The notes below the pieces were generated by a model. That model searched no databases and was not told the origin of the DNA. It saw only the letters and a program-made list of their open reading frames with translations. From assembly GCA_964016885.1 (NCBI GenBank), contig OZ024741.1, positions 144,646,001-144,710,000 on the forward strand: a stretch of 64,000 nucleotides of DNA. The letters are read 5' to 3'. The stretch comes from Eledone cirrhosa. Its lineage: Eukaryota. A program made the position numbers and the translations under genes. Below, piece by piece: positions 1 through 63,978 of the stretch (position 1 is the stretch's first letter; each line of letters begins with the position of its first letter).

Positions 1-166
1 TATAGAATTCACTTTCTACACTTGACCGGCTCCATCCACTCCCTTATTGTTCTACAGGCAAGTTCAGCCCCCCCCCCCCTACACACCGCCATGAAAGATT
101 TAATTGTGTTTACAAGAAATTTTGACCAATCCTTTTGACAACTACAATCTTCCTATATAAGGAATT

Positions 167-260
167 ACCCCTTGAAAAGTTTGGCTATCTATTACCATGC
201 TACAAATCTAATTTAGTCCAGAAATAGCCGTCAAAATGGCTTGAGATCTGCCGTCGGGGT
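167..260 (+). ncRNA. Degenerate type-I hammerhead ribozyme motif (PLE-type, full stem III)
   Basis: Stem I acccc/ggggt; core decayed to TTGAAAA and AAAA; stem II ggctat/atagcc; stem III tggc-loop-gccg; then TC. Homologous to 44667-44718 and 57650-57755. Confidence 0.55.
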
Positions 261-352
261 CTTGAACATTTTCCTATATATATATAAAGATACACATATA
301 TATATATATACAATATATTAATAAATGGAAACTATATCTATAAAACCATATT

Positions 353-1042: not shown

Positions 1043-2800
1043 TCATCATCATCATCATCATCATCATCAGGTTTAGCGTCCGTGTTCCACGCTTGCATGG
1101 GTTTGGACGGGGGTTTTCCCACTTGAGGCAAGAGTGGTTGTCTTGCTCGCATAGGACTGTCTGGCGGGTTTTCTACAGTTGGATGCCCTTCCTAACACCA
1201 ACCACATTTTCAGTGTGGGGCTGGGAGGTTTTTACCGTGTTGCCTACACGGCCACATTACAGCGTGGACTGTCTGGCGGGTTTTCTACAGCTGGATGCCA
1301 TTCCTAACACCAACCACATTTACAGTGTGGGGCTGGGAGGTTTTTACCGTGTTGCCTACACGGCCACATTTACAGCGTGGACTGTGTGTTTTTTGTCGTG
1401 ACACCTACACGATCTCATTTGTTTCGGCCTGGATGTTGTGGGACCAACATAACTTTACATTGAAAGGGGCGGTGTGGGTGGGGTGGAGGTGGTGGGACGG
1501 GGGTGTGTTTTGATAGAGGTGCCTACTGACTGTAGTAGGTTTTTACTTTGTATTTAGGTAAGGCGGGTCTTCTCTATTACTGAGTACCGCCAAAGGTCTC
1601 GGTCCAGTGACATTGTCTTGGAGAGGTGTAAGCGTGTGAGGTCGGAATTTATCAGCTCGTCCCATGTTTTTCTGGGTCTGCCTACTCCGTGGCTACCGTC
1701 TATCTTTATTGCCCTGCACTTTGTTATACAGCTGTCGTCTTTCATGCGCATCACGTGTCCATACCAACGTAGCCTTCTCTCGAGTAAACAACATCTGATC
1801 CCTCTTATTTCTAATTTTTTCCTTAGTTCGTTTATGCTTTGCCGTTCACGTATATTACTATTGCACATCCAGCGGAGCATGCAAGCTTCGTTCCTCTCTA
1901 GTCTGCGTATATCCTCTGCACACAATGCCCAGGTCTCACTGCCATGCAGCATTGCTGTTCGTATGCAGGCATCGTATAACCTGCCTTTCATTTTTAGGGA
2001 GAACCCTCTAGCGGCTAATAGTGGTATAAGCTCTCTGAACTTTTTCCATCCAGTTCTGACTCTAGCTACAGTACTTTCAGAGCACCCTCCCCCACTGCTG
2101 ATTTTGTCACCCAGATAACGGAAGCTGTCCACTATTTCTATAGAACCCTCTGCGCAGTTGAAGGAGCTAGTATTTTGTGGGCACTTGCTGCTACTTATTG
2201 CACCAGAGCACCGGCCACATGTAAAATCTATGTTCTTAGTTAGCTTACCTGTGATCCCACTACATCTTTTATGCACCCATACTTTGCATTTGGGACATAA
2301 AATGGAGTTTCTACCTACGCCTTTCCTACACACTGAGCATGGCCATTTCCCCGATGGGACCGCCGCCTTATTTTCTTTCCTACAAACTAGAACTTTAGTC
2401 TTAGCCAGGTTAATTTTAAGGCCTTTTGATTCTAGGCCGTGCTTCCACGTTTGGAATTTCTTCTCTAGTTCGGTCATTGATTCAGCTATGAGCGTTAGAT
2501 CATCTGCGTATAGGAGTTCCCATGGGCAGCCGGTCTTGAACTCCTCTGTTATAGCCTGAAGGGCAATAATAAATAGTAGGGGGCTAAGTACAGAGCCCTG
2601 ATGGACACCAACTTTTACGCTAAACTCTTCACTATATTCGTTGTTAATTCTAACCTTACTGACTGTTTCTTTATACATGGCTTGTATAGCTCTCACAAGC
2701 CATTCGTCAACACCTAGTTTTCTAAGAGACCACCAGATAATGGAACGGGGGACTCTGTCGAAGGCTTTCTCCAAGTCGACAAAAGCTAAGTATAGGGGTG
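1043..2800 (-). mobile_element. RTE-clade LINE, family A, 5'-truncated; open RT C-terminal ORF 1554-2800
   Basis: FVDLEKAFDRV, GVHQGSVLSPLLF and LLYADDL RT motifs, an internal PHD-like Cys/His finger, RRLRWYGHVMR and GRPRKTW. 3'UTR ends in (GAT)n and carries a roughly 110-bp tandem duplication (about 1155-1385). Confidence 0.95.
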
Positions 2801-4000: not shown

Positions 4001-5243
4001 ACATGGAAGCATGGCCTAGAATCAAAAGGCCTTAAAGTTAACTTGTCTAAGACTAAAGTTCTAGTTTGTAGGAAGGAAAATAGGGCACCGGTCCCATCGG
4101 GGAAATGGCCATGCTCAGTGTGTAGGAAAGGAGTAGGCAGAAACTCCATTTTATGTCCCAAATGCAAAGTATGGGTGCATAAAAGATGTAGTGGGATCAC
4201 AGGTAAGCTAACTAAGAATATAGATTTTATATGTGGCCGGTGCTCTGGTGCAATAAGTAGCAGCAAGTGCCCACAGAATATTAGCTCATTCCATTGCACA
4301 GATGGTTCTATAGAAATAGTGGACACCTTCCGTTACCTGGGTGACAAAATCAGCAGTGGGGGAGGGTGCTCTGAAAGTACAGTAGCTAGAGTCAGAACGG
4401 GATGGAAAAAGTTCAGAGAGCTTATACCACTATTGGCCGCTAAAGGGTTCTCTCTAAAAATGAAAGGCAGGCTGTATGATGCCTGCATATGAACAGCAAT
4501 GTTACATGGCAGTGAGACCTGGGCATTGTGTGCAGAGGATATATGCAGACTGGAGAGAAACGAAGCATGCATGCTCCACTGGATGTGTAATACGTGAACG
4601 GCAAAGCATAAACGAACTAAGTGAGAAATTAGGAATAAGAGGGATCAGATGTTGTTTACTCGAGAGAAGACTACGTTGGTACGGTCACGTGATGCGCATG
4701 AAAGACGACAGCTGTATAAAAAAGTGCAGGGTGATAAAAATAGACGGTAGCCACTGAGTAGGCAAACCCAGAAAAACCTGGGACGACTTGATAAATTCCG
4801 ACCTCACACACTTACACCTCTCCAAGTCAATGTCATTGGACCAAAATCTTTGGCGCTACACAGTCATACAGAAGACCTGCCTTGCCTAAGTACAAAGCGA
4901 AACCTACAGTCAGTAGGCACCTCTAACAAAATACCCCCCCCCCCCTAAATGTGAAGTTATGTTGGTACCACAACATCCAGTCCGAAACAAATGAGGTCGT
5001 GTAGGTGTCACGACAAAAAAACACACAGTCCACGCTGTAATGTGGGAGTGTAGGTAACACGGTAAAAACCTCCCAGTCCACACTGTAAACGTGGTTGGTG
5101 TTAGGAAGGGCATCCAGCCGTAGAAAACCCGCCAGACAGTCCTATACAAGCACGACAACAAATCTTGCTTCAAGTGGGAAAACTCCCGTCCAAACCCATG
5201 CAAGCATGGAAGATGGACGTTAAACGATGATGATGATGATGAT
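4001..5243 (+). mobile_element. RTE LINE family A fragment, inverted relative to 1043-2800
   Basis: [14 protein letters not shown]...GRLYDACI followed by stops and frameshifts; same 3'UTR and (GAT)n tail. Confidence 0.93.
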
Positions 5244-5303
5244 ACATACATATATATATACACACACATATATATACATATATATACATACATATATATA
5301 TAT

Positions 5304-5344
<41 letters not shown>

Positions 5345-5466
5345 TACATATATATACATACATATATATATACATATATATACATACATATATATATACA
5401 TATCATCATCGATGATGATGATATACATACATATATATATACATATATACATACATATATATATAT

Positions 5467-6073
5467 GGTGGCTGCCAACTCGTTTTCGAGTACGGCCACT
5501 ACTTTATATCCATGTAGAACCCCTACCAATGCGCTGAACGAATGTGACTTTTTAGTCCAGCCAGCGACTTGAAAACTCTGGTACAAACACTACACCTGTG
5601 ACAATTATTGACACATAGTGCTGGGCCCATGATACCATGTGACGACAAGTGCAGAGAGATCTCCAGATATAAAGCAATGCCTGTGCCGTGAAGCTTTTAT
5701 AGTGAGCAAAGGCACTGCACAAAGCCAGTCCCACTCTCTTAACCAAGATGATATTTACCAAAAAGAAGAACAAGTCAACATCATTGGATACCATCAGGGT
5801 TGCAGGTGTTATATCAGAGTTTTCCTTCTCCTAGAATTCTGCCTTGACAAAGGCTAAGGGGTCATCTCTCCCGGTGATTTTGGATGGCTATTGACTCTTA
5901 AGAGCCCCTTTGCCTTTTGACAGGTTTTGTTTTTAGTCCTGCAGGATGTCCAAAGTCACCCTCCTCACCAAGAAACCTTGGTGGGGTTGTCAGTTTAGTC
6001 GCCAACGACCCGACCATGAGACAGGTTGTACTGGGATACATGTTACCAGTAGCACCAACTGGTGACCTGACAC
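5467..6073 (-). mobile_element. Probable 5'UTR fragment of an RTE-type retrotransposon
   Basis: Minus strand contains 'ctaggagaaggaaaactctga', which I recognise from RTE/BovB-like 5'UTRs. GC-richer block bounded on both sides by (TA)n. Confidence 0.5.
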
Positions 6074-6123
6074 AATATATATATATACATATATACATAC
6101 ATATATATATATACATATATCAA

Positions 6124-7508
6124 CATCATCATCATCATCATCACCGTTTTACGTCCGTTCTTCCATGCTAGCATGGGTTAGACGGGTTGTCCTGTTGTGG
6201 GCAGTGTCTGGTCGGCTGACCATGCCTTGTTCATACAGGAACTGATTTTGGCTTGATTTCTACAGCTGGATGCCCTTCCTAACACCAACCTCATTTACAG
6301 TGAGTGCTGTGTGCTTTTTCCGTGGCGCCTACACGTCCACTTTACAGTGTGGGCTTGGTGCTTTTTTGCCGTGGCACCTTCACGACCACCTTGCAGTGGG
6401 AGGGTGTGGGGGCATATTGTCTATATGCTTCAGCTTGTACCCATGGGAGGTCGGGTACTCTGTATTACTGCGTGACGCCAGAGGTCACGGTCGTGTGTCA
6501 TCGCCTTTGAGAGGTGTAATTGGGTAAGGTCGGCTTTTATCACCTCATCCAAGGTCTTCTTGGGTCTCCCCACTCCGCGGTTTCCATTGACTTCTAGTGC
6601 TCTGCACCTTTTTATGCAGCTGTCATCCTTCATACGCATCACACGTCCATACCAACGCAACCGCCTCTCCTGCACACAGTATTTGATTCCTCTTATGCTC
6701 AGTCTCTCTCTCAATTCCTTTATGCTTTGTCGTTCACGTATATTACTATTACACATCCATTGGAGCATGCAGGCTTCGTTTCTCTCTAATCTACGTAAGT
6801 CTTCCACAGACAGCGCCCAGGTCTCACTACCATGTAACATTGCTGTTCAGATACACGCATCATACAGTCTGCCTTTCATTTTGAGGGAGAAGCCTTTTGC
6901 AGCTAGCAGTGGCAGTAGTTCCCTGAACTTCTTCCATCCCGTTCTTACCCTAGTTATTGTACTTTCTGAACACCCACCTCCGCTGCTAATTCGGTCACCT
7001 AGGTAGCAGAAGCTGCCTACAGTTTCTACAGGGCCCTCCCAGAGATTGGTTATACTTGTTTCCTGTGGTTGTTTGCTGCTTGCTGTCCCAGCACAGCTGC
7101 TACATGTGAAGCCTACATTCTTAATTAAGCTTCCTGAGATCCCGCTACATCTCTTGTGTACATTTGGGGCAGAGAATGGAGTTCCTACCTACACCTTTCC
7201 TACATACTGAGCAAGGCCATTTCCCTGAGGGGATCTGGGTTCTGTTTTCTCGTCTACTTACAAGGACCTTAGTCTTTGTCATGTTGACTTTGAGACCCTT
7301 TCTTTCTAGTCCCTGCTTCCAAGTTTGGAATTTCTTCTCTAGTTCTACCATAGATTCAGCTATAAGTGCGAGGTCATCAGCATACAGGAGTTCCCATGGG
7401 CATCTGGTCTTAAACTCCTCTGTTAATGCCTGCAGGACTATGATGAACAGGAGGGGGCTAAGAACAGGGCCCTGGTGGACACCAACCTGTACGCTAAATT
7501 CCTCGCTA
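6124..7508 (-). mobile_element. RTE LINE family B, 5'-truncated, with internal deletion/frameshift
   Basis: ORFs 7145-7723 and 6430-6840 carry GVHQG.VLSPLLF, YADDL and RRLRWYG. 3'UTR is distinct from family A; (GAT)n tail at 6124. Confidence 0.93.
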
Positions 7509-20598: not shown

Positions 20599-20724
20599 AT
20601 TATATATATATAGAGAGAGAGAGAAAAGGTGAAGTTGGAAATAGCACAGAAAATATATTTTCTGTGCTATTTCCAACTTCACTTTTTCTCTATATCCACT
20701 GTTTTGTATAGAACCTTACTTCTC

Positions 20725-21301: not shown

Positions 21302-21899
21302 TCTATATATATAAAGTTGTAGTTCCTGTCTGTTTGTTTGTTCACAAACTCCTCCTATGGTTTTGGAGATAGACCCGCCATAACCATATATATTCTGAAA
21401 CTACATTGCCCAGGGTACTTGGATAATTATATTTCATTTTAATCAAAGGGTTCCCTGGGGGCACAAACCCTCGCTGAAAATGTTTTCCCTTCAATTTATA
21501 TGAAATTTAAACCAGAGGTAAATGACAAGATATGATGCCTATTCACAACATTTCAATAATATTAAGACACCCTAATGGGGGTTAAACCCCCTATAGTGAA
21601 AATCTCAGAAGCCCATAACTTGAGTATTGGAACCTCTATTATCACGGGGTTTTTCTATTAATTAAACGTAAATCAACAAAAAAAGCACCTCTCTTTTATA
21701 GTAAAATTTGGCTAATTTAGACATTTTATCTATGGCAAAACATCACTAGAATTATGACAACAAAAATTATTAGTTAATGCCTCTACTTTTTTAACATTTT
21801 CCCTTTATTTTTTCTCCATAAATTATATCACTGATTTAAAATCAATCATCATTTTCTTACAAAAAATGTGTGAAATGCAGCAAGGCGTGGGTAATTCAG

Positions 21900-21903
<4 letters not shown>
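21302..21903 (+). mobile_element. Non-autonomous Helitron-like element
   Basis: 5' TCTATATATATAAAG..gtctgtttgtttg; 3' gcaaggcgtgggtaattcagCTAAt (CTAG-like end). An inverted copy of the 3' end with intact CTAG lies at 21941-21982. Confidence 0.6.
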
Positions 21904-21942
<39 letters not shown>

Positions 21943-22288
21943 TAGCCAAATTACCCGCGCCTTGCTGCATTTCACACATTTTATATATATATATATATGT
22001 ATATACACACACACACATATACAGAATGAAAGAGAAGAAATGGCATCAGTATTTGACTGGCACATTTTTTATAAGTCTTGAAAGGATGAAAGGCAAAATT
22101 GATTTCAGCAGAATTTGAACTGAGGGTGCAGAGAACTAGAATATGTACTACATGTCATTCTGGCTGACACTTAATGGTTCTGCCACTCCATTGCCTTTGC
22201 ACCCACACACAAAAAAAAAACATTCAGATAAATAGGTAGGCATATATATATATACACAGGCAGACTCCCCTCTTCATATACATACATG

Positions 22289-22326
<38 letters not shown>

Positions 22327-22949
22327 CATTAAGATAGATATACAGAGACAGATATATAGATACACACACACACACAAATATATATATATATAAACATTTA
22401 ATATAAAACGAAAAATCAGTGATGCATCTGAACTCAATTTATTGTGTGTTACAATTGTTTCGCCGGCGGACAGCTCGAGACGCGATCATTGTGTGGATCT
22501 TCTGTCTGCGGGTCCAGAATCAGACAGAAGATCCACACAATGATCGTGTCTCGAGCTGGCGAAACAATTGTAACACACAATAAATTGAGTTCAGATGCAT
22601 CACTGATTTTTCGTTTTATATTATATCATACTCTGCCTATGGAAGCATCTTAGCTACCATCCGACACATATATATAAATATTTAGATAGATAGATATATA
22701 GATATTGTATCTGTGAATACACACCAATACACACACACAGACATAACTATTCAGATAAATACTTAGATATGCATAGAGTCTGATAGATAAATACAAAAAT
22801 ACACACACAAACATAAGTAAACATTCAGATATATAGACAGATAATAGAGAGACAAACAGACAGAGATAGATAAAGAGACAGAAGAACTTAAAAAAGGAAT
22901 TGACAGCATGGCACATGCTGTATTTGGAAATGTTAAAGAAACTCCTTAC

Positions 22950-32100: not shown

Positions 32101-33704
32101 TAATATATACTCCCGTAAGGTTGAGTAAAACTTTAGGCAGTATTCGGCTGCGCTTTCTAGCAACCAGCCTACTCGCCGACAGGCACCAATCTCAAATTTT
32201 CTGCCTTGACCGCTAGCCACGTGATAGTTCTTAGCCATTTTGAATTCATTTCTCGTGGGGATCATGGTGGAAAAAACTTAGTCCAGTCTGAGGTATCTCC
32301 TGAAGAGTTCCAAGCCTCGTGGATAGATCCAAGATCAGGTATATCCAAAAAGCGGAACGAAACTGCCGGTTGGTCGGGACTAGAGGAATTTTGGTAAAGT
32401 TTATGTGCATTTTTTCTTCAAACTTCTATTTTGTACCTAACTCTGTGTAGTTGATTATTTGTCTAGTCAATTTCTACAGGCTAAAAGAAATAATTAGATA
32501 AATGTCATATGACTGTACATTGCGGAAGATAGTCTGTATCATTTGTCTATTATTTCTTCATAATTACATTTTAAACTTATAGCCTCGTTTAATTGATTTT
32601 TTATGTGGTTAATTTATGTGGACTAGGTGAGGAAATACTGTATATATTTTATCTAATAGTTCTTCAGTCTTGCAATTTTATATATATATATATATACACA
32701 CACACATATAAATGTATATAAACACTTGTACATGCACCCACATATATATATATATTGAGTGAGTGTGAAAAGCTGAAACTTGTTACTACTATTCTGTGGA
32801 TGTGTATATATGGTCTTTATTGGAGAAGGTAAGAAATTCTTAATATTTTCAATTCCTCTGATCCTCTCTTTGATTTTAGAGTAAATGTGTTTAACCTTGC
32901 AATGAATTGCATTGTCCAGTCACATGAATCACACTTTGTGCAACACACACAGTTGTATAAAGATTTATCCATAAAACTGGTAAGAGCAGAGATAAAAGAA
33001 TAATAGAAGAAGTAGAATATTAAAAGTAGAAGAAATCAAAACCGTGTAAATTTATTCTATATTTTTAGATGGGCTGGAGTAATCGAATTCGTGGTGATAG
33101 AATTCTTTGCAAATGTATGTTTAATAAAACAAAACAAAACAAACAATATGATATGTACAAGTTGTTTGAAAGAAATCTCCTTTGTAAAGAGCAAACAGAC
33201 ACATGATATATATGTATGAAGATGTGGTATTAAATGCAATGCCATGATTTTCATAACTATCACTTTGACAGTAAAAAGTCTTCATTAAAAATATTGAAAT
33301 TGATTTTTTAGAATTTTGGACTATATTTTCATTTTGGTAAACAATTTTCAAAGCAACAGTATACTTCCAAAATAACAGTATGCTATTCATTCACAAAAAT
33401 ATTTATTTAAAAATTCAAATATAACATTCTGTATTTACATTTGGTATTACTGTATACTGCCAGTAATATGTACAGACTGTACATATTACTGGCAATATGT
33501 ACTGTACAGTATATATAGACATTTTTTTTTCACGGAAATTTTAATAGCATGTTTTTGTTTTCACTTATGTACTTTTTGAAAAAGTACATAAGAGGAAACA
33601 AAAACATGCAATTAAAATTTTATTTATTCATTATAAAAATTAAATGAATGCTTTGTAGTTGTGAGTGGGACACCTTTGTGTCATGGCAACCCAGTCTGCC
33701 ACTG
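31497..33704. mobile_element. Non-autonomous hAT-type DNA transposon
   Basis: Perfect 14-bp TIR CAGTGGCAGACTGG / CCAGTCTGCCACTG and perfect 8-bp TSD ACTACATG (31489-31496, 33705-33712). Confidence 0.9.
32296..32379 (+). ncRNA. Type-I hammerhead ribozyme motif
   Basis: tctc CTGAAGA gttcc..(long loop)..ggaac GAAA ctgccggttgg TC ggga; GUC cleavage triplet. Confidence 0.7.
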
Positions 33705-43728: not shown

Positions 43729-44084
43729 AATATGGTTTTATAAATATAGTTTCCATTTATTTAATATCACTGTATATATATATATATATATATATATATG
43801 ATAGATAAGTGTGTAACTATAGTTACAGGCAGTTCACCGTTCTAAGCACTCAAGGCTGTTACAAGGTCAGTCTTGTGTTGGGTTCCATTCCAAAGTTAAG
43901 GCTGTAGTGTGCAGTCTTTCATAATCATCATCATCATCGTTTAATGCCCACCTTCCACGCTAGCAAGGAAGTATCAGGCCCTGGTCATTACAACTGAGCT
44001 GATTGATATTGAAACGATTGTAATATGCCAATAAAGATTATATATATGCTTCAACAGTGACTTTGATCCTACATACTTTTATTT

Positions 44085-44126
<42 letters not shown>

Positions 44127-44442
44127 AGTATGTAGGATCGAAGTCACTGTTGAAGCATATATATAATCTGTGTGTATATATATATGAAAAGGAAGTTGAA
44201 AATGCAATTCAAGACTGAATTTTCAAATTCTTTTTCCTATATTTTTACCTATGACCCATGTGGGTAAAAATATATGAAAAAGAATTTGAAAATTCAGTCT
44301 TGAATGTGTGGCTATGATGGCCACACATTTCTGCATCTTTCTTGACTTTTGAAAATTACAAAACTTGTGAAACTGCTAAATAAACCTTCTTAAAGACTCC
44401 AATTGCATTTTCAACTTCCTTTTCATATAAATATATATATAT

Positions 44443-44473
<31 letters not shown>

Positions 44474-44890
44474 CATACACATATATATATACATACACAC
44501 ATATATATATATACATATATATATACATAACAAAGGAATTGTGGTAAGGAACCAGATGGACCATAACACACCAAAGTACTCAATACTTAGGGTAGTAGAG
44601 TGGGTAATAGGAACAAGTATGACCCCGACGGCAGAGCTCAAGCCGTTTCGACGGCTATATCCAGAAATAGCCGTCGAAACGGCTTGAGCTCTGCCGTCGG
44701 GGTCATACTTGTTCCTATATATATACATATATATATACACACACATATATATTTGTGTGTATGTGTGTATATGTATGTATACATTTATATATATACATAC
44801 TGTATATATATATATATATATATACATGCCTGTAGACACAAATATAGATTTATATATTCAAATATATATTTTAATAAAAAAGATGTCTCT

Positions 44891-57798: not shown

Positions 57799-58486
57799 AC
57801 CACTTAATCACAGTTGTTGCAAACCTAGGGGACAATTGAGTTTGGAGGATATAGCTGATACTACAACTATAACAACTAACTAGCAGGGAGGACGGGGAAC
57901 AGGTTACTTGCAGAATTTGTTACTACAATGATGACTTTTACTTTCAACATTCGGCATTAGTGATGTGGTACTGAGATTGACCACAGGGGCCAGCTGGCAA
58001 AGAAACAACATCAACACATTCTGCTGTTCCCTGTATCATGAAAAAAGAAATATTTTGTGGAAGTTTAAAACATTTTTTTGAAGAAGTTTTTAATATTTTC
58101 AAATTTTTTTTTCAAAGGTTTTTATGCTGTCTAAAGAACTTAGGCTATCAAAATTGGTAATCCTCAGCAAAATATGTATCACAGAGATTTGAATAACCCA
58201 AAATCAACTGCTTACGGCCTCTGATCTTTTTAATACTATCTCATCATCATCATTTAAAATCCATCTTCCTTGCTAGCATGGGTAAGACAAGCCATCCCTC
58301 TGTCAGGGACCAGGTCGGGGGACCATGGTTCTCTCACACAGAACTGATTTGGCTTGGTTTCTACGGATGGATGCCCTACCTAACACCAACCACATTTACA
58401 GTGTGCGCTGGGTGCTTTTTGCTATGGCACCTGCATCATTCATACAATATATATATATTTATGTAATAAACAACATAAGATAATTA

Positions 58487-58546
58487 TTTCATTTACCAGT
58501 GCTTTCTTGAAAGCAAACAAATCTGCTTTCAGTCATCAGAATGAAA
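58487..58546 (-). ncRNA. Type-I hammerhead ribozyme
   Basis: Minus strand reads tttcatt CTGATGA ctgaaagca gatttgtt tgctttcaa GAAA gcactgg TA aatgaaa. Confidence 0.8.
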
Positions 58547-60718
58547 AATTCCTGGTGTTTTTATTGAATGTGGATTTGAAAACCTGTGATTTGTTTGCTT
58601 TCAAGAAACCACTGGTAAATGAAATAATTATCTTATGTTGTTTATTACATAACTATTAAGCTCTGTAACCTACATAGAGCACTCTTTTTTCCTGGACCTT
58701 TCCGACGGAATTACTTCATTTACACACATATATATATATATGTGTGTGTGTGTGTGCATATATATATATATGTGTGTGTGTATATACATACATACATATA
58801 GATGTGTAACACATGTGCTTGATCTCCAAAATATTTTTTCCGTTTCTTTCTTTTCTTACTCTTATCTATTCTTTTATTTCTCATTCTGATATATATATAT
58901 TTTCATTGTACTACATCATTTTCCTGTGTTGTTTATCCATATATTTTTCACACACACACATGTATATAAACATGATATTACTCTATTACATGTTCCAGTC
59001 GACAGGCTGAGGCCATGTTGGGCCACCGGAAGTGTTGAAGGTGTAAAAAATGTTCCTAAAGTTGTAGGAATCTCAAATGTGGAAATAGCTGTAAAAAACC
59101 AGCTGCTATGATGAATAGCAAAGAGTCAGAGAGAGAATGAAAGGAATAGAGTGCAAAGCATGAGATGGGAGAGGTACAGAGAAAGAGAGCATAAAAGAAG
59201 GAATGATAGTGATAGAGCATAAAAGTATTAAGAATGATAAAACAGTGGAGAAAAGTGGAAGAACATAAAATAAATAATGAACTATAGCGTCGTAATCACC
59301 TCTCCAGCTTCCTTCTAGCTATCATGCACCCCCCCCCCCCCCCACACTCTATCGACCCCATAATTTCATGCCTGTCCGCCAATGAGCAATTTTTCCATGA
59401 ACATGTGCTTCATTACAGCTTGACACTAAAAGAAAAGCAGATTCCAAGAATGACTAACCTACTACTGAAGCCCCAACTGAGGATCTAGCAAGTTTAATAC
59501 TCATTTATTGTGCATACCAACATCGGCATATACACCCCTAGATACACACAGTACATATGCACACCAGCATATGCAACCATAGGTTCACACAGTAAATATG
59601 CTGACACGAGCATAACTCTTCCTAAAATCCACCAACCAATAGATTCCACACCTAGATAGACACCAGCACAAGTGCATACAGAAGCACCTGTGCATATGGG
59701 ACCATGTAAACACACACACACCATCACATCACATCATAGAAATACATGTACCTTTGCCTGCACTTCCAACACTTAAGCTATACAGGATAAATCTCAAATA
59801 GGCCAGCACCTATGACACCAATCCAATTCTTACACAAAAACAACAACACTCATACATGCACTCCAATACAAAAGTTACAATAACTAATTGAATGCAGACA
59901 GCCCTCTTGCACACACACAGGCACACCAGCGACAACTTTAGGCCTATTATATTGCATAAGAGATAAATACAAAACATCGACACCACCTCTCTCTTTAACA
60001 ACAAATACAAAATATCAACACCACTTCTCCTTTCACAAACACCCACCCATACATACACACTTGTGTGTATGTGTGGGTGACAAACCCACATACATACAAG
60101 CATATTAAGTGCCACATATGCACCTACAATGTTTCCACACACATTCCAACTCTCAAGCACTAGAACACTTCTAAATTAAAATATAAAAATATACACATAT
60201 GCATGTAAAATTGGTTAAAAATAAGTTTTAGCACAATCTGTAACAAATACAAAAACCATAATTCCAGCTAAAACACACACAGTCATAATACTGACCAGCT
60301 GATCTGTAATCTTTTGAAAAGACTAAAAAATAGGTTCTTTTGTTGATGGACACATAAAAACATGTATGCACATGACCATGCAGTTTTTTTTGTGTGGGAG
60401 TGATAATGATTTTTTGTGGTGTCAATGCTGGTTCCTCTGACCCCTCCGACCACAGAAATGGCAAACGCCACACATACATGCACACCTACATACACACCCC
60501 AATAAATCAAGATGATGACTATTTTCCATTTCCCCTTCAATTCAGCCAAAATTCTTCCCTTACCACAGTATCACATTTTTTCTTACCTATTCCCACATAA
60601 GTAGTGAAACATGCAGACATACATACACACACTTGTGTAGTCACAAACCCACACACACACAGCCACATACAGAAAATATACAGAAATATATGTAAATATA
60701 TATATAAAAATATAATTA

Positions 60719-61711: not shown

Positions 61712-61920
61712 TATATATATATACATATATATATACATATATATGCATATATATACATATATATGCATTCTGAGTATATGTTGGTTGTTTACCGACACCT
61801 CAGTATGCAGATTGGAACACTCGATAAAGTATGAAGGTTGGTTTGTTTACTCCGGAGTAATGTAAAATAATTATGTCAAATATGTAAAATTTGGCTTCGT
61901 TTATTATAAATTATAGATAT

Positions 61921-61975
61921 ACTGCTATATGTATTTCGGTGACAGCCATCATTGGCTGTGACCTCTTCAGGCAGT
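61921..61975 (-). ncRNA. Minimal hammerhead ribozyme (left arm of foldback)
   Basis: Minus strand reads actgc CTGAAGA ggtcacagcc aatgat ggctgtcacc GAAA tacata TA gcagt. Confidence 0.8.
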
Positions 61976-62195
61976 CCAAATTGGTGTGGGAAAGACAGGT
62001 ACTCTGTCAATACATCGATATGTCCAGCTCCTGTTTGTGTTGTTATTTCTCTGATATGATTCCAGTTCCTCAGAGAAATTTGTAACATTGACTCAGAGAA
62101 ATAACAACACAACCAGGAGCTGGATATACCGATGTATTGACGGAGTAAAACACACTTCAACAACATGTGTACCTGTGTTTCCCACACCAATACGG

Positions 62196-62250
62196 ACTGC
62201 CTGAAGAGGTCACAGCCAATGATGGCCGTCACCGAAATATATATAGCAGT
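62196..62250 (+). ncRNA. Minimal hammerhead ribozyme (right arm of foldback)
   Basis: actgc CTGAAGA ggtcacagcc aatgat ggccgtcacc GAAA tatata TA gcagt. Confidence 0.8.
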
Positions 62251-62624
62251 ATATCTATAATTTATAATAAACGAAGCCAAATTTTACATATACATATATA
62301 TACCTATATATATATATATAAAAAAAATATATACATATACATATATATATATACATATATATATATACCTATATATATACCTATATATACCTATATATAT
62401 AGGTGCTTTTTTGCCGTGGCACCTCCACGACCACTTTGCAGTGGAATGATAGAAATAAGATGATAGGGACTGGGGTCCCTATCATCTTATTTCTACAGCT
62501 GAGTAAACTGGAGCAATGTGAAATAAAGTGTCTTGCTCAAGGAAACAACACATCACTCGGTCTGAGAATTGAACTCACAACCTTTCGATTGCAAGGCCAA
62601 TGCTCTAACCACTAAGCCATGTGC

Positions 62625-63672: not shown

Positions 63673-63978
63673 ACGAGCTTTAAAGACCGTTGGTATAACC
63701 ATCGCCATTCCTTCAATAAGGAGGCCAAAAGGAAAAGTACGGCTCTCTCCGACCTGATCTGGAAGCTTAAGCTGGACAGGACCCCGTACTCTCTGGCCTG
63801 GTCCATAATCAGGAAAGTACCACCTGATAAAGGGGGATCTGGCATATGCAAGCTATGTCTGAATGAGACCCTCGAGATACTAAGAGGTGGAAGCCGCATG
63901 ATAAACCTCAGAACCGACTTCTTCGGGACATGCAGACACCTAAGGGCTGGGATCTTCCTCAAGATATATGGGCAGTAA
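63668..63978 (+). mobile_element. PLE GIY-YIG endonuclease C-terminal fragment
   Basis: STSFKDRWYNHRHSF..KSTALSDLIWKLK..WSII..CKLCLNE..INLRTDFFGTCRH matches the PLE endonuclease C-terminus (Naiad-like pattern from memory). Its 5' end abuts (TA)n. Confidence 0.85.

What the first reader, a model, noticed from the sequence alone, without database searches (positions are those of the whole stretch)
44607..44718. Perfect 52-bp hairpin whose apex is the stem-II loop of a hammerhead: ribozyme-templated snap-back
The right arm, atagccgtc GAAA cggc ttgagctct gccg TC ggggt, is stem II 3' strand, GAAA, full stem III, GUC site and stem I. The homolog at 167-260 shows the parental layout (acccc-core-..ggctat-long loop ending tccagaa-atagccgtc). 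Here everything 5' of the stem-II loop is replaced by an exact mirror of the 3' side. The same geometry occurs at 22399-22623 and 58460-58651 in unrelated families. Inference: during PLE-type reverse transcription the cDNA folds back on the ribozyme's own stem II and self-primes second-strand synthesis. That would convert ribozymes into long perfect hairpins, a route to new dsRNA or pre-miRNA-like loci that I do not know to be described.
Basis: partly seen in the sequence, partly recalled or inferred. Interest (0 to 1): 0.8.

Follow-up and report, generated by a model that had tools for sequence, protein, structure and literature searches.

The report
Abortive Penelope retroelement double insertion
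This hairpin is one of thousands of tiny head-to-head double copies of the front end of a Penelope-like jumping gene, likely made when both cut ends of the target DNA each copied the gene's RNA back to its likely start site, so the pattern is a known one and the ribozyme probably does not fold it.

Summary
The 52-bp perfect hairpin is real, and its right arm is the 3' half of a type I hammerhead. The parent is a Hydra-type Penelope-like element (784-codon RT + GIY-YIG frame, 3,531-bp unit) that inserts in (TA)n. Stem-II snap-back fails its tests. Its predicted junction occurs once genome-wide. In 46 of 92 sampled hairpins the tail-less arm reaches further 5' than the tailed arm, and in 9 the arms do not overlap. 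A second family without a detectable hammerhead makes the same structures. Arms instead stop at a sharp wall (126 of 184 within nine bases), at TT/TC-AGT with TATTTA near -31 and CCAAT near -92: likely the transcription start, which lies inside stem II. Best model: two cDNAs, primed from the two target ends at the element's two start sites, run to the RNA 5' end and are joined. Unexpectedly, 37 of 38 ORF-bearing copies run through that wall, which suggests a second kind of template. No RNA data were obtained.

The parts
44528..44658 (-). Long (tailed) arm: element positions +10 to +140, where +1 is the A of AGTCCAGAA
   Evidence: 96% to natural copy L051 over 131 nt; 5 mismatches
44528..44607 (-). 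80-nt tail (+61..+140): the sequence that follows the pLTR and leads into the ORF; on this arm only
44659..44659 (.). One untemplated base at the head-to-head joint
   Evidence: Parse of the junction
44660..44717 (+). Short arm: +3 to +60, ending at TTCCTA on the (TA)n target
   Evidence: 98% to L051; 10,697 exact short ends on TATATA in the genome
44665..44703 (+). 3' half of a type I hammerhead: stem II 3' strand 44665-44675, GAAA 44676-44679, stem III 44680-44696, cleavage triplet ending 44698, stem I 3' strand 44699-44703; no core, so predicted inactive here
   Evidence: Fold of parental copies; sequence
44431..44527 (.). Left (TA)n/(CA)n target microsatellite
   Evidence: Sequence
44718..44826 (.). 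Right (TA)n-rich target microsatellite
   Evidence: Sequence
9..275 (+). Decayed longer copy of the same family: 3' UTR, stem I ACCCC 167-171, core TTGAAAA 172-178, +1 at 215, GAAA mutated, short end
   Evidence: 85% to L051 over window 9-261; sequence
22399..22668 (+). Family 2: head-to-head arms with a one-sided tail; no hammerhead found
   Evidence: 1,014 exact anchor matches
58460..58720 (+). Family 3: head-to-head arms with a one-sided tail; minimal CUGAUGA hammerhead core kept in the left arm
   Evidence: 2,526 exact anchor matches; in L242 the tail runs into an ORF related to the family 1 ORF

Best explanation
The hairpin is a minimal insertion of a Penelope-like retroelement into a (TA)n tract, likely made when the two cut target ends each primed a cDNA, one at element position +140 and one at +60, and both likely ran to a fixed RNA 5' end at +1 before being joined head to head. 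Shown: the parent element, the two 3' ends, the pile-up of 5' ends at +1, and that neither arm is a full copy of the other. Inferred: +1 is the Pol II start site in the pLTR, which happens to lie inside hammerhead stem II; the two cDNA ends are joined by end-joining with small trims, microhomology and short re-copied inserts (a brief fold-back of a few bases may help make the joint). The ribozyme would not template the second arm, and these copies would be dead-end products, like strong-stop cDNA.
For: Parent: 784-codon open frame with RWR, DKT, YRDD, CxCx5C, a GIY-YIG-type motif, CxxC and CxH, in tandem units 3,531 bp apart. Two 3' ends: 63 of 90 tail-anchored loci and 34 of 50 short-end loci have an inverted partner; the partner nearly always ends at the other site (44 of 63 at +61, 29 of 34 at +140). 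Wall: 126 of 184 arm 5' ends lie at -2..+7, 53 at +1 or +2, and 10 lie 5' of -2. Arms with no partner also start there: 7 of 27 and 3 of 16 at -4..+7. Genome-wide, 8,147 matches reach +1 (a count that also demands a non-C base at -12) against 1,897 that keep six more bases. Independence of the arms: tailed arm reaches further 5' in 39, the tail-less arm in 46, equal in 7 of 92; 9 pairs do not overlap. In the commonest joint the arm that starts at +7 carries the tail in 13 of 16 loci. Promoter-like spacing: TATTTA at -31..-28 in 32 of 39 parental copies, CCAAT in 27, TTAGT or TCAGT in 36. Family 2, with no hammerhead hit, has its own wall at C-AGTGAG (17 of 47 arms within 11 nt, none in the next 22 nt upstream). 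In vitro, an anole PLE protein cuts and extends both target strands and starts at two internal RNA sites that define the tail; ribozyme cleavage was not needed (PMC11167929).
Against: No RNA reads were seen, so the start site is unproven. The cap signature is inconclusive: an untemplated G precedes +1 in 13 of 22 non-T cases, but also in 13 of 31 control starts (Fisher p 0.27). 37 of 38 ORF-bearing copies that reach +1 carry on upstream, which a simple mRNA starting at +1 does not predict. +1 also lies in a small apical stem of stem II, so a structural stop is not excluded. The two arms share subfamily variants (position +10: 7 T/T, 50 A/A, 0 mixed; +54: 11 G/G, 59 T/T, 1 mixed), so they come from one template or one source copy, which snap-back also predicts. 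Family 3 shows no sharp wall.
Confidence: 0.62

Rival explanations
1. Two cDNAs as above, but +1 is a structural stop, not the RNA end: the protein-bound apical stem of hammerhead stem II acts as a template boundary, as in telomerase (the analogy is recalled).
For: +1 lies in the 3' strand of an apical stem (GGCTAAA/TTTAGTC), and other subfamilies can form a stem there with changed sequence (read by eye). It would explain why long cDNAs pass +1 (37 of 38). The anole PLE ribozyme cleaved only with protein present (PMC11167929).
Against: The mode is mid-stem, after two stronger stems have been copied; only 16 of 184 ends lie at +8..+17. Family 2 has a wall without a detectable hammerhead. TATA-, CCAAT- and Inr-like words sit at textbook spacing.
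Confidence: 0.2
2. One cDNA runs to the RNA 5' end, folds back on itself without the ribozyme and copies itself; later deletions at the palindrome centre make the asymmetry.
For: Arms agree at subfamily variants. Short re-copied inserts such as GAAATAGCC follow +1 in some joints. Self-priming was proposed for PLE palindromes (PMC3846280).
Against: A tail-less cDNA cannot template the tail, and a tailed cDNA cannot give a second arm that starts further 5' than itself, as seen in 46 of 92 pairs; 9 pairs have no overlap. 16 of 50 short arms have no partner, so +60 is a priming site of its own.
Confidence: 0.1
3. One reading: the cDNA folds on the ribozyme's own stem II and self-primes the second strand.
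For: The apex lies in the stem II region. 4 of 184 ends lie at -34..-24. In family 3, 5 of 69 arms start at the stem II loop.
Against: 1 genome-wide match to the predicted junction pattern (the pattern covers the main subfamily's loop start only). The parental loop is lost at this locus. Family 2 lacks a detectable ribozyme; in family 3, 56 of 69 arms keep the whole core.
Confidence: 0.04
4. A ready-made hairpin element spreads as a unit (MITE-like, or copied from a hairpin transcript).
For: One joint (+1/+7) recurs 1,829 times.
Against: 83 distinct joint geometries in 92 pairs; the recurring joint occurs in several subfamilies and with the tail on either side.
Confidence: 0.04

Closest known systems
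Insertion unit of EN+ Penelope-like elements: inverted 5'-truncated pLTR with a one-sided 30-40 bp tail (PMC3846280; PMC8557442)
   Same: Head-to-head inverted ends, tail on one side, tail equal to the sequence after the pLTR, microsatellite target.
   Different: Here most insertions are only the two ends, with no body; the tail is 80 nt; 5' ends stop at one site; at least thousands of copies.
Hydra clade of C-terminal-EN PLEs (PMC8557442, section 11)
   Same: RWR (paper: RWK), DKT, CxCX5C linker, CxxC and CxH around the conserved E and N, (TA)n target, hammerhead in the pLTR.
   Different: Unit 3.5 kb against 'generally <3 kb'; U3-A8 core; no tree was built, so placement rests on motifs.
Anole Poseidon PAc in vitro (PMC11167929)
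   Same: Both target strands extended; two internal start sites bound the tail; ribozyme cleavage not needed.
   Different: The parts I read do not map genomic 5' ends or tie inverted ends to the two primed strands.
PLE minimal hammerheads, including the U3-A8 variant of Schistosoma Cercyon (PMC4209133)
   Same: Type I order, U3-A8 core, G10.1-C11.1 pair, long stem II, palindromic loop 3; pairs of motifs on opposite strands noted there.
   Different: Stem III has 4 further pairs; mini copies hold only the 3' half.
L1 twin priming and retroviral minus-strand strong-stop DNA (both recalled, not read)
   Same: Two primers from one target site; a short cDNA that ends at the RNA 5' end.
   Different: In L1 the two pieces do not duplicate each other; here they overlap in most copies and form a hairpin.

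Membership tests
EN+ Penelope-like element | Single ORF with PLE-type RT and GIY-YIG endonuclease | tested here: met
   784-codon frame with YRDD and VIY-x-YIG motif. Pfam was weak: GIY-YIG E 0.069, below cut-off, and no RT hit for a broken copy. Atlas neighbours at 0.96 carry HTH_animal and, in a minority, RVT_1.
EN+ Penelope-like element | Tandem or partial-tandem units forming pLTRs | tested here: met
   Units 3,531 bp apart in L345; 37 of 44 ORF starts keep same-strand upstream sequence
EN+ Penelope-like element | Inverted 5'-truncated copy and one-sided tail | tested here: met
   92 long-plus-short pairs among 136 distinct loci
EN+ Penelope-like element | Target-site duplication | tested here: inconclusive
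   Flanks are (TA)n, so a duplication cannot be read
Hydra clade | RWK-like, DKT, CxCX5C, CxxC and CxH motifs | tested here: met
   RWR 104, DKT 184, CNCPDRSIC 639, CNLC 737, CKH 765
Hydra clade | Absence of the CCHH motif in the endonuclease | tested here: inconclusive
   By eye only one Cys lies inside the GIY-YIG stretch and one after it; no alignment to reference PLEs
Hydra clade | Phylogenetic placement | not tested
   No reference PLE set was fetched
Type I hammerhead (parental pLTR) | Core YUGANRA, GAAA, NUH and three stems | tested here: met
   Fold. In 46 distinct copies A8 46, U3 44, U4 46, G5 44, A6 46, A9 44, and position 7 takes all four bases
Type I hammerhead (parental pLTR) | Self-cleavage at GUC | not testable with these tools
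   Only 3 of 184 arm ends fall at +41/+42: no genomic trace of cleavage
Type I hammerhead (this locus) | Core strand present | tested here: not met
   No core on either strand of 44500-44740
Stem-II snap-back product | Parental stem II loop kept between mirrored arms | tested here: not met
Non-LTR retrozyme | Head-to-tail tandem of complete hammerheads | tested here: not met
   Head-to-head halves; definition from 10.64898/2026.07.22.740005
pre-miRNA or siRNA locus | Transcription and processing into small RNAs | not tested
   No reads were obtained; Rfam mir-127 match is below its cut-off

The most novel reading that the evidence does not exclude
The element starts transcription inside its own ribozyme. 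Linear transcripts then carry the substrate half at the 5' end and the core half at the 3' end. Priming near the 5' end leaves paired strong-stop cDNAs, the hairpins, while the two halves can meet across the 3.5-kb RNA (they fold into the hammerhead as two pieces), cut out a unit-length RNA and give a circle with no 5' end. Circles would be the template of the long, partial-tandem copies that run through +1 (37 of 38). The genome would thus record two template classes, and explain both the inverted pLTR and the partial tandem of Penelope elements.
Probability: 0.2. Interest if true: 0.75.

Novelty: new member of a known kind. Interest (0 to 1): 0.42.

Why it matters
How Penelope-like elements make their inverted ends and tails is still open (PMC8557442, PMC11167929). 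This genome holds thousands of minimal products whose ends can be mapped to the base. They argue against whole-arm self-priming and for priming from both target ends, and they show a 5' wall that short copies respect and long copies ignore. That gives direct tests with an intact 784-codon element at hand. The locus itself is an ordinary dead insertion. Thousands of young 50-60-bp perfect hairpins could feed dsRNA pathways, but no expression was shown.

Tried and rejected
Rfam scan: no hammerhead among the matches shown; the miRNA hits are below cut-off and mostly microsatellites. Cap-G test: inconclusive against its control. Ribozyme cleavage as the source of 5' ends: 3 of 184 at +41/+42. A perfect parental mini-hairpin (-7..-1 with +7..+13) as the cause of the +1/+7 joint: the AATT-subfamily parents seen lack it (L074, L089; L345), and 6 of the 100 rows listed have the base that parental read-through would give. 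Splice acceptor at TTTAG: arms keep the AG and share no upstream exon. GTCCAGAA as a motif shared between families: it occurs in family 2, but that family's wall is about 50 nt further 5'. First-pass values of -7 and -62 were alignment artefacts and were re-scored. Family 2 could not be tied to an RT frame. Literature searches that found no description of a fixed 5' wall or of two-cDNA joining in PLEs; the library lacks most subscription papers, and supplements were not read.

Full report
Observation. The arms 44607-44658 and 44667-44718 are 52 of 52 complementary around ATCCAGAA, far beyond chance. Both sides run into (TA)n-rich microsatellite. The left arm does not stop at 44607: it continues for 80 nt as element sequence to 44528. 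A 22-mer of the right arm has 17,510 exact matches in the 3.0-Gb own genome, control 0; 26 of the first 100 listed matches form head-to-head pairs within 60 bp.

Parent element. Positions are given with +1 at the A of AGTCCAGAA in natural copy L051. [quoted passage not shown] A search with the ORF start returned 150 scored matches, many with open frames of 784 codons and some in tandem. The unit in L345 is 3,531 bp. Its frame has RWR, DKT, YRDD, CxCx5C, CxxC and CxH, the motifs given for the Hydra clade, which inserts in (TA)n (PMC8557442). Pfam support was weak and no tree was built. The tail is the sequence that follows the pLTR into the ORF.

The ribozyme. Parental copies fold as a type I hammerhead: stem I ACCCC/GGGGU, core UUGANAA, long stem II with an apical stem, GAAA, stem III with a palindromic loop, GUC (18 of 30 loci had the core, the rest being truncated or altered). 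In 46 distinct copies position 8 is always A, position 3 is U in 44, and position 7 takes all four bases. U3-A8 is a known PLE variant (PMC4209133). This locus has only the 3' half. Cleavage was not tested.

Breakpoint map. I took the first 90 listed of 3,420 tail matches (one fetched stretch held two) and 50 of 10,697 short-end matches. All are on contig C1 and are exact matches, so the sample leans young. Of 140 loci 136 were distinct, and 92 were a tailed arm joined head to head to a tail-less arm. Of 184 arm 5' ends, 126 lie at -2..+7, 53 at +1 or +2, 16 at +8..+17, 4 at -34..-24 and 3 at the cleavage site. Arms with no partner also start at the wall. Genome-wide counts agree: 8,147 against 1,897. 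There are 83 distinct joint geometries in 92 pairs, so joints form anew; 10 of 53 well-overlapping pairs are perfect, mean mismatch 5.2%, so this locus is among the younger ones.

Test of snap-back. Folding on stem II would keep the parental loop between the mirrored arms. A pattern for that junction has 1 match; it covers only the main subfamily's loop start. Any self-copying predicts that the tailed arm reaches furthest 5'. It does so in 39 pairs, the tail-less arm in 46, equal in 7; 23 pairs have the tailed arm shorter by 15 nt or more, and 9 do not overlap. The commonest joint (+1/+7, 1,829 matches) has the tail on the arm that starts at +7 in 13 of 16 loci. At this locus the short arm starts at +3 and the long arm at +10. 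Against my reading, the arms agree at subfamily variants, so they share one RNA or one source copy. Short re-copied inserts suggest that a few bases of fold-back may help the joint.

Other families. Family 2 (22399) has the same arms-plus-tail layout. A type I descriptor found no hammerhead in 30 of 30 loci scanned (20 later loci were not scanned). Its arms stop at their own wall: 17 of 47 within 11 nt of C-AGTGAG, 10 far upstream, none between (4 reference arms left out). Its link to an RT was not shown. Family 3 (58460) is a related element (L242) with a CUGAUGA hammerhead (16 of 30 loci); 56 of 69 arms keep the whole core, 5 start at the stem II loop, and no sharp wall shows (6 reference arms left out; subfamily divergence blurs the ends). 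The apex therefore has no fixed place in the ribozyme.

What +1 is. TATTTA lies at -31..-28 in 32 of 39 parental copies, CCAAT upstream in 27, and TTAGT or TCAGT spans +1 in 36; the promoter meaning of these words is recalled. PLE start sites lie in the pLTR (PMC8557442). A cap trace was not shown (13 of 22 against 13 of 31, p 0.27). No RNA reads were seen. +1 also sits in the apical stem, so a structural stop remains the main rival.

Unexplained. Of 44 ORF starts in 40 loci, 37 keep same-strand upstream sequence, 1 starts at +2 and 6 start downstream of +45. Among tail-anchored arms that reach +7, 46 of 62 stop at the wall (Fisher p 1e-13; some ORF starts share an array). Long cDNAs must come from RNA without that end (circle or long read-through), jump at it, or meet no bound protein there. 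The two ribozyme halves fold together as separate pieces, which fits a circle but is no test of it.

Comparison. Head-to-head inverted pLTRs with a tail are described, and self-priming on an antisense template was proposed (PMC3846280; parts 1-4 of 5 read). PMC11167929 (parts 1-2 of 4) shows both strands extended and two start sites. Also seen: PMC8557442 (passages and section 11), PMC4209133 (parts 1-2 of 4), 10.64898/2026.07.22.740005 (part 1 of 5), PMC12029980 (abstract and section 2.1; not decisive). Supplements were not read; those of PMC11167929 may bear on 5' ends. Four earlier scan notes file similar hairpins in other genomes as known PLE units; they are unchecked and not counted as support.

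Verdict. A real, young, dead insertion of a known kind. The ribozyme snap-back is not supported. The value lies in the 5' wall and the evidence for two cDNAs. Interest 0.42.

Noticed in passing
L345 (G000:C1:437195500-437205400) and other rows: Many near-identical copies with an open 784-codon frame, some in tandem arrays of three or four units: the family looks recently active.
   Followed up: partly
L083, L115, L162: Tail-only pieces that start at +59: the long cDNA seems to stop at the second priming site, as twin priming on one RNA would give.
   Followed up: partly
L073, L074, L293: A few arms start at -30, about 32 nt after a TATAAG at -62: a possible minor start site, also the edge of stem II.
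   Followed up: partly
L026/L226, L194, L214, L238: Different families sit side by side in one (TA)n tract: shared target, nested insertions.
   Followed up: no
family 2 parents, e.g. L207, L198: TGACGT and CCAAT words upstream of the wall; GTCCAGAA occurs about 50 nt downstream of it, with 4 of 47 arms starting near it.
   Followed up: partly
family 3 parents, e.g. L227: Pyrimidine tract ending in CAG about 70 nt 5' of the core, like a 3' splice site; an intron end abuts the ribozyme in D. virilis Penelope (PMC4209133).
   Followed up: no
window 63679-63939: Fragment related to the family's endonuclease (37%, E 1e-14).
   Followed up: no
window 21879-21966, 44035-44169, 44207-44305, 20629-20682, 33537-33619, 61880-62291, 62450-62495: Further hairpins; some have (TA)n at the centre, the opposite geometry.
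   Followed up: no
window 1859-2450 and 4001-4592: 592-nt inverted arms, 93% complementary, around a microsatellite-rich spacer.
   Followed up: no
L032, about 4500-7000: 2.5-kb tandem array with units of about 25-28 bp.
   Followed up: no
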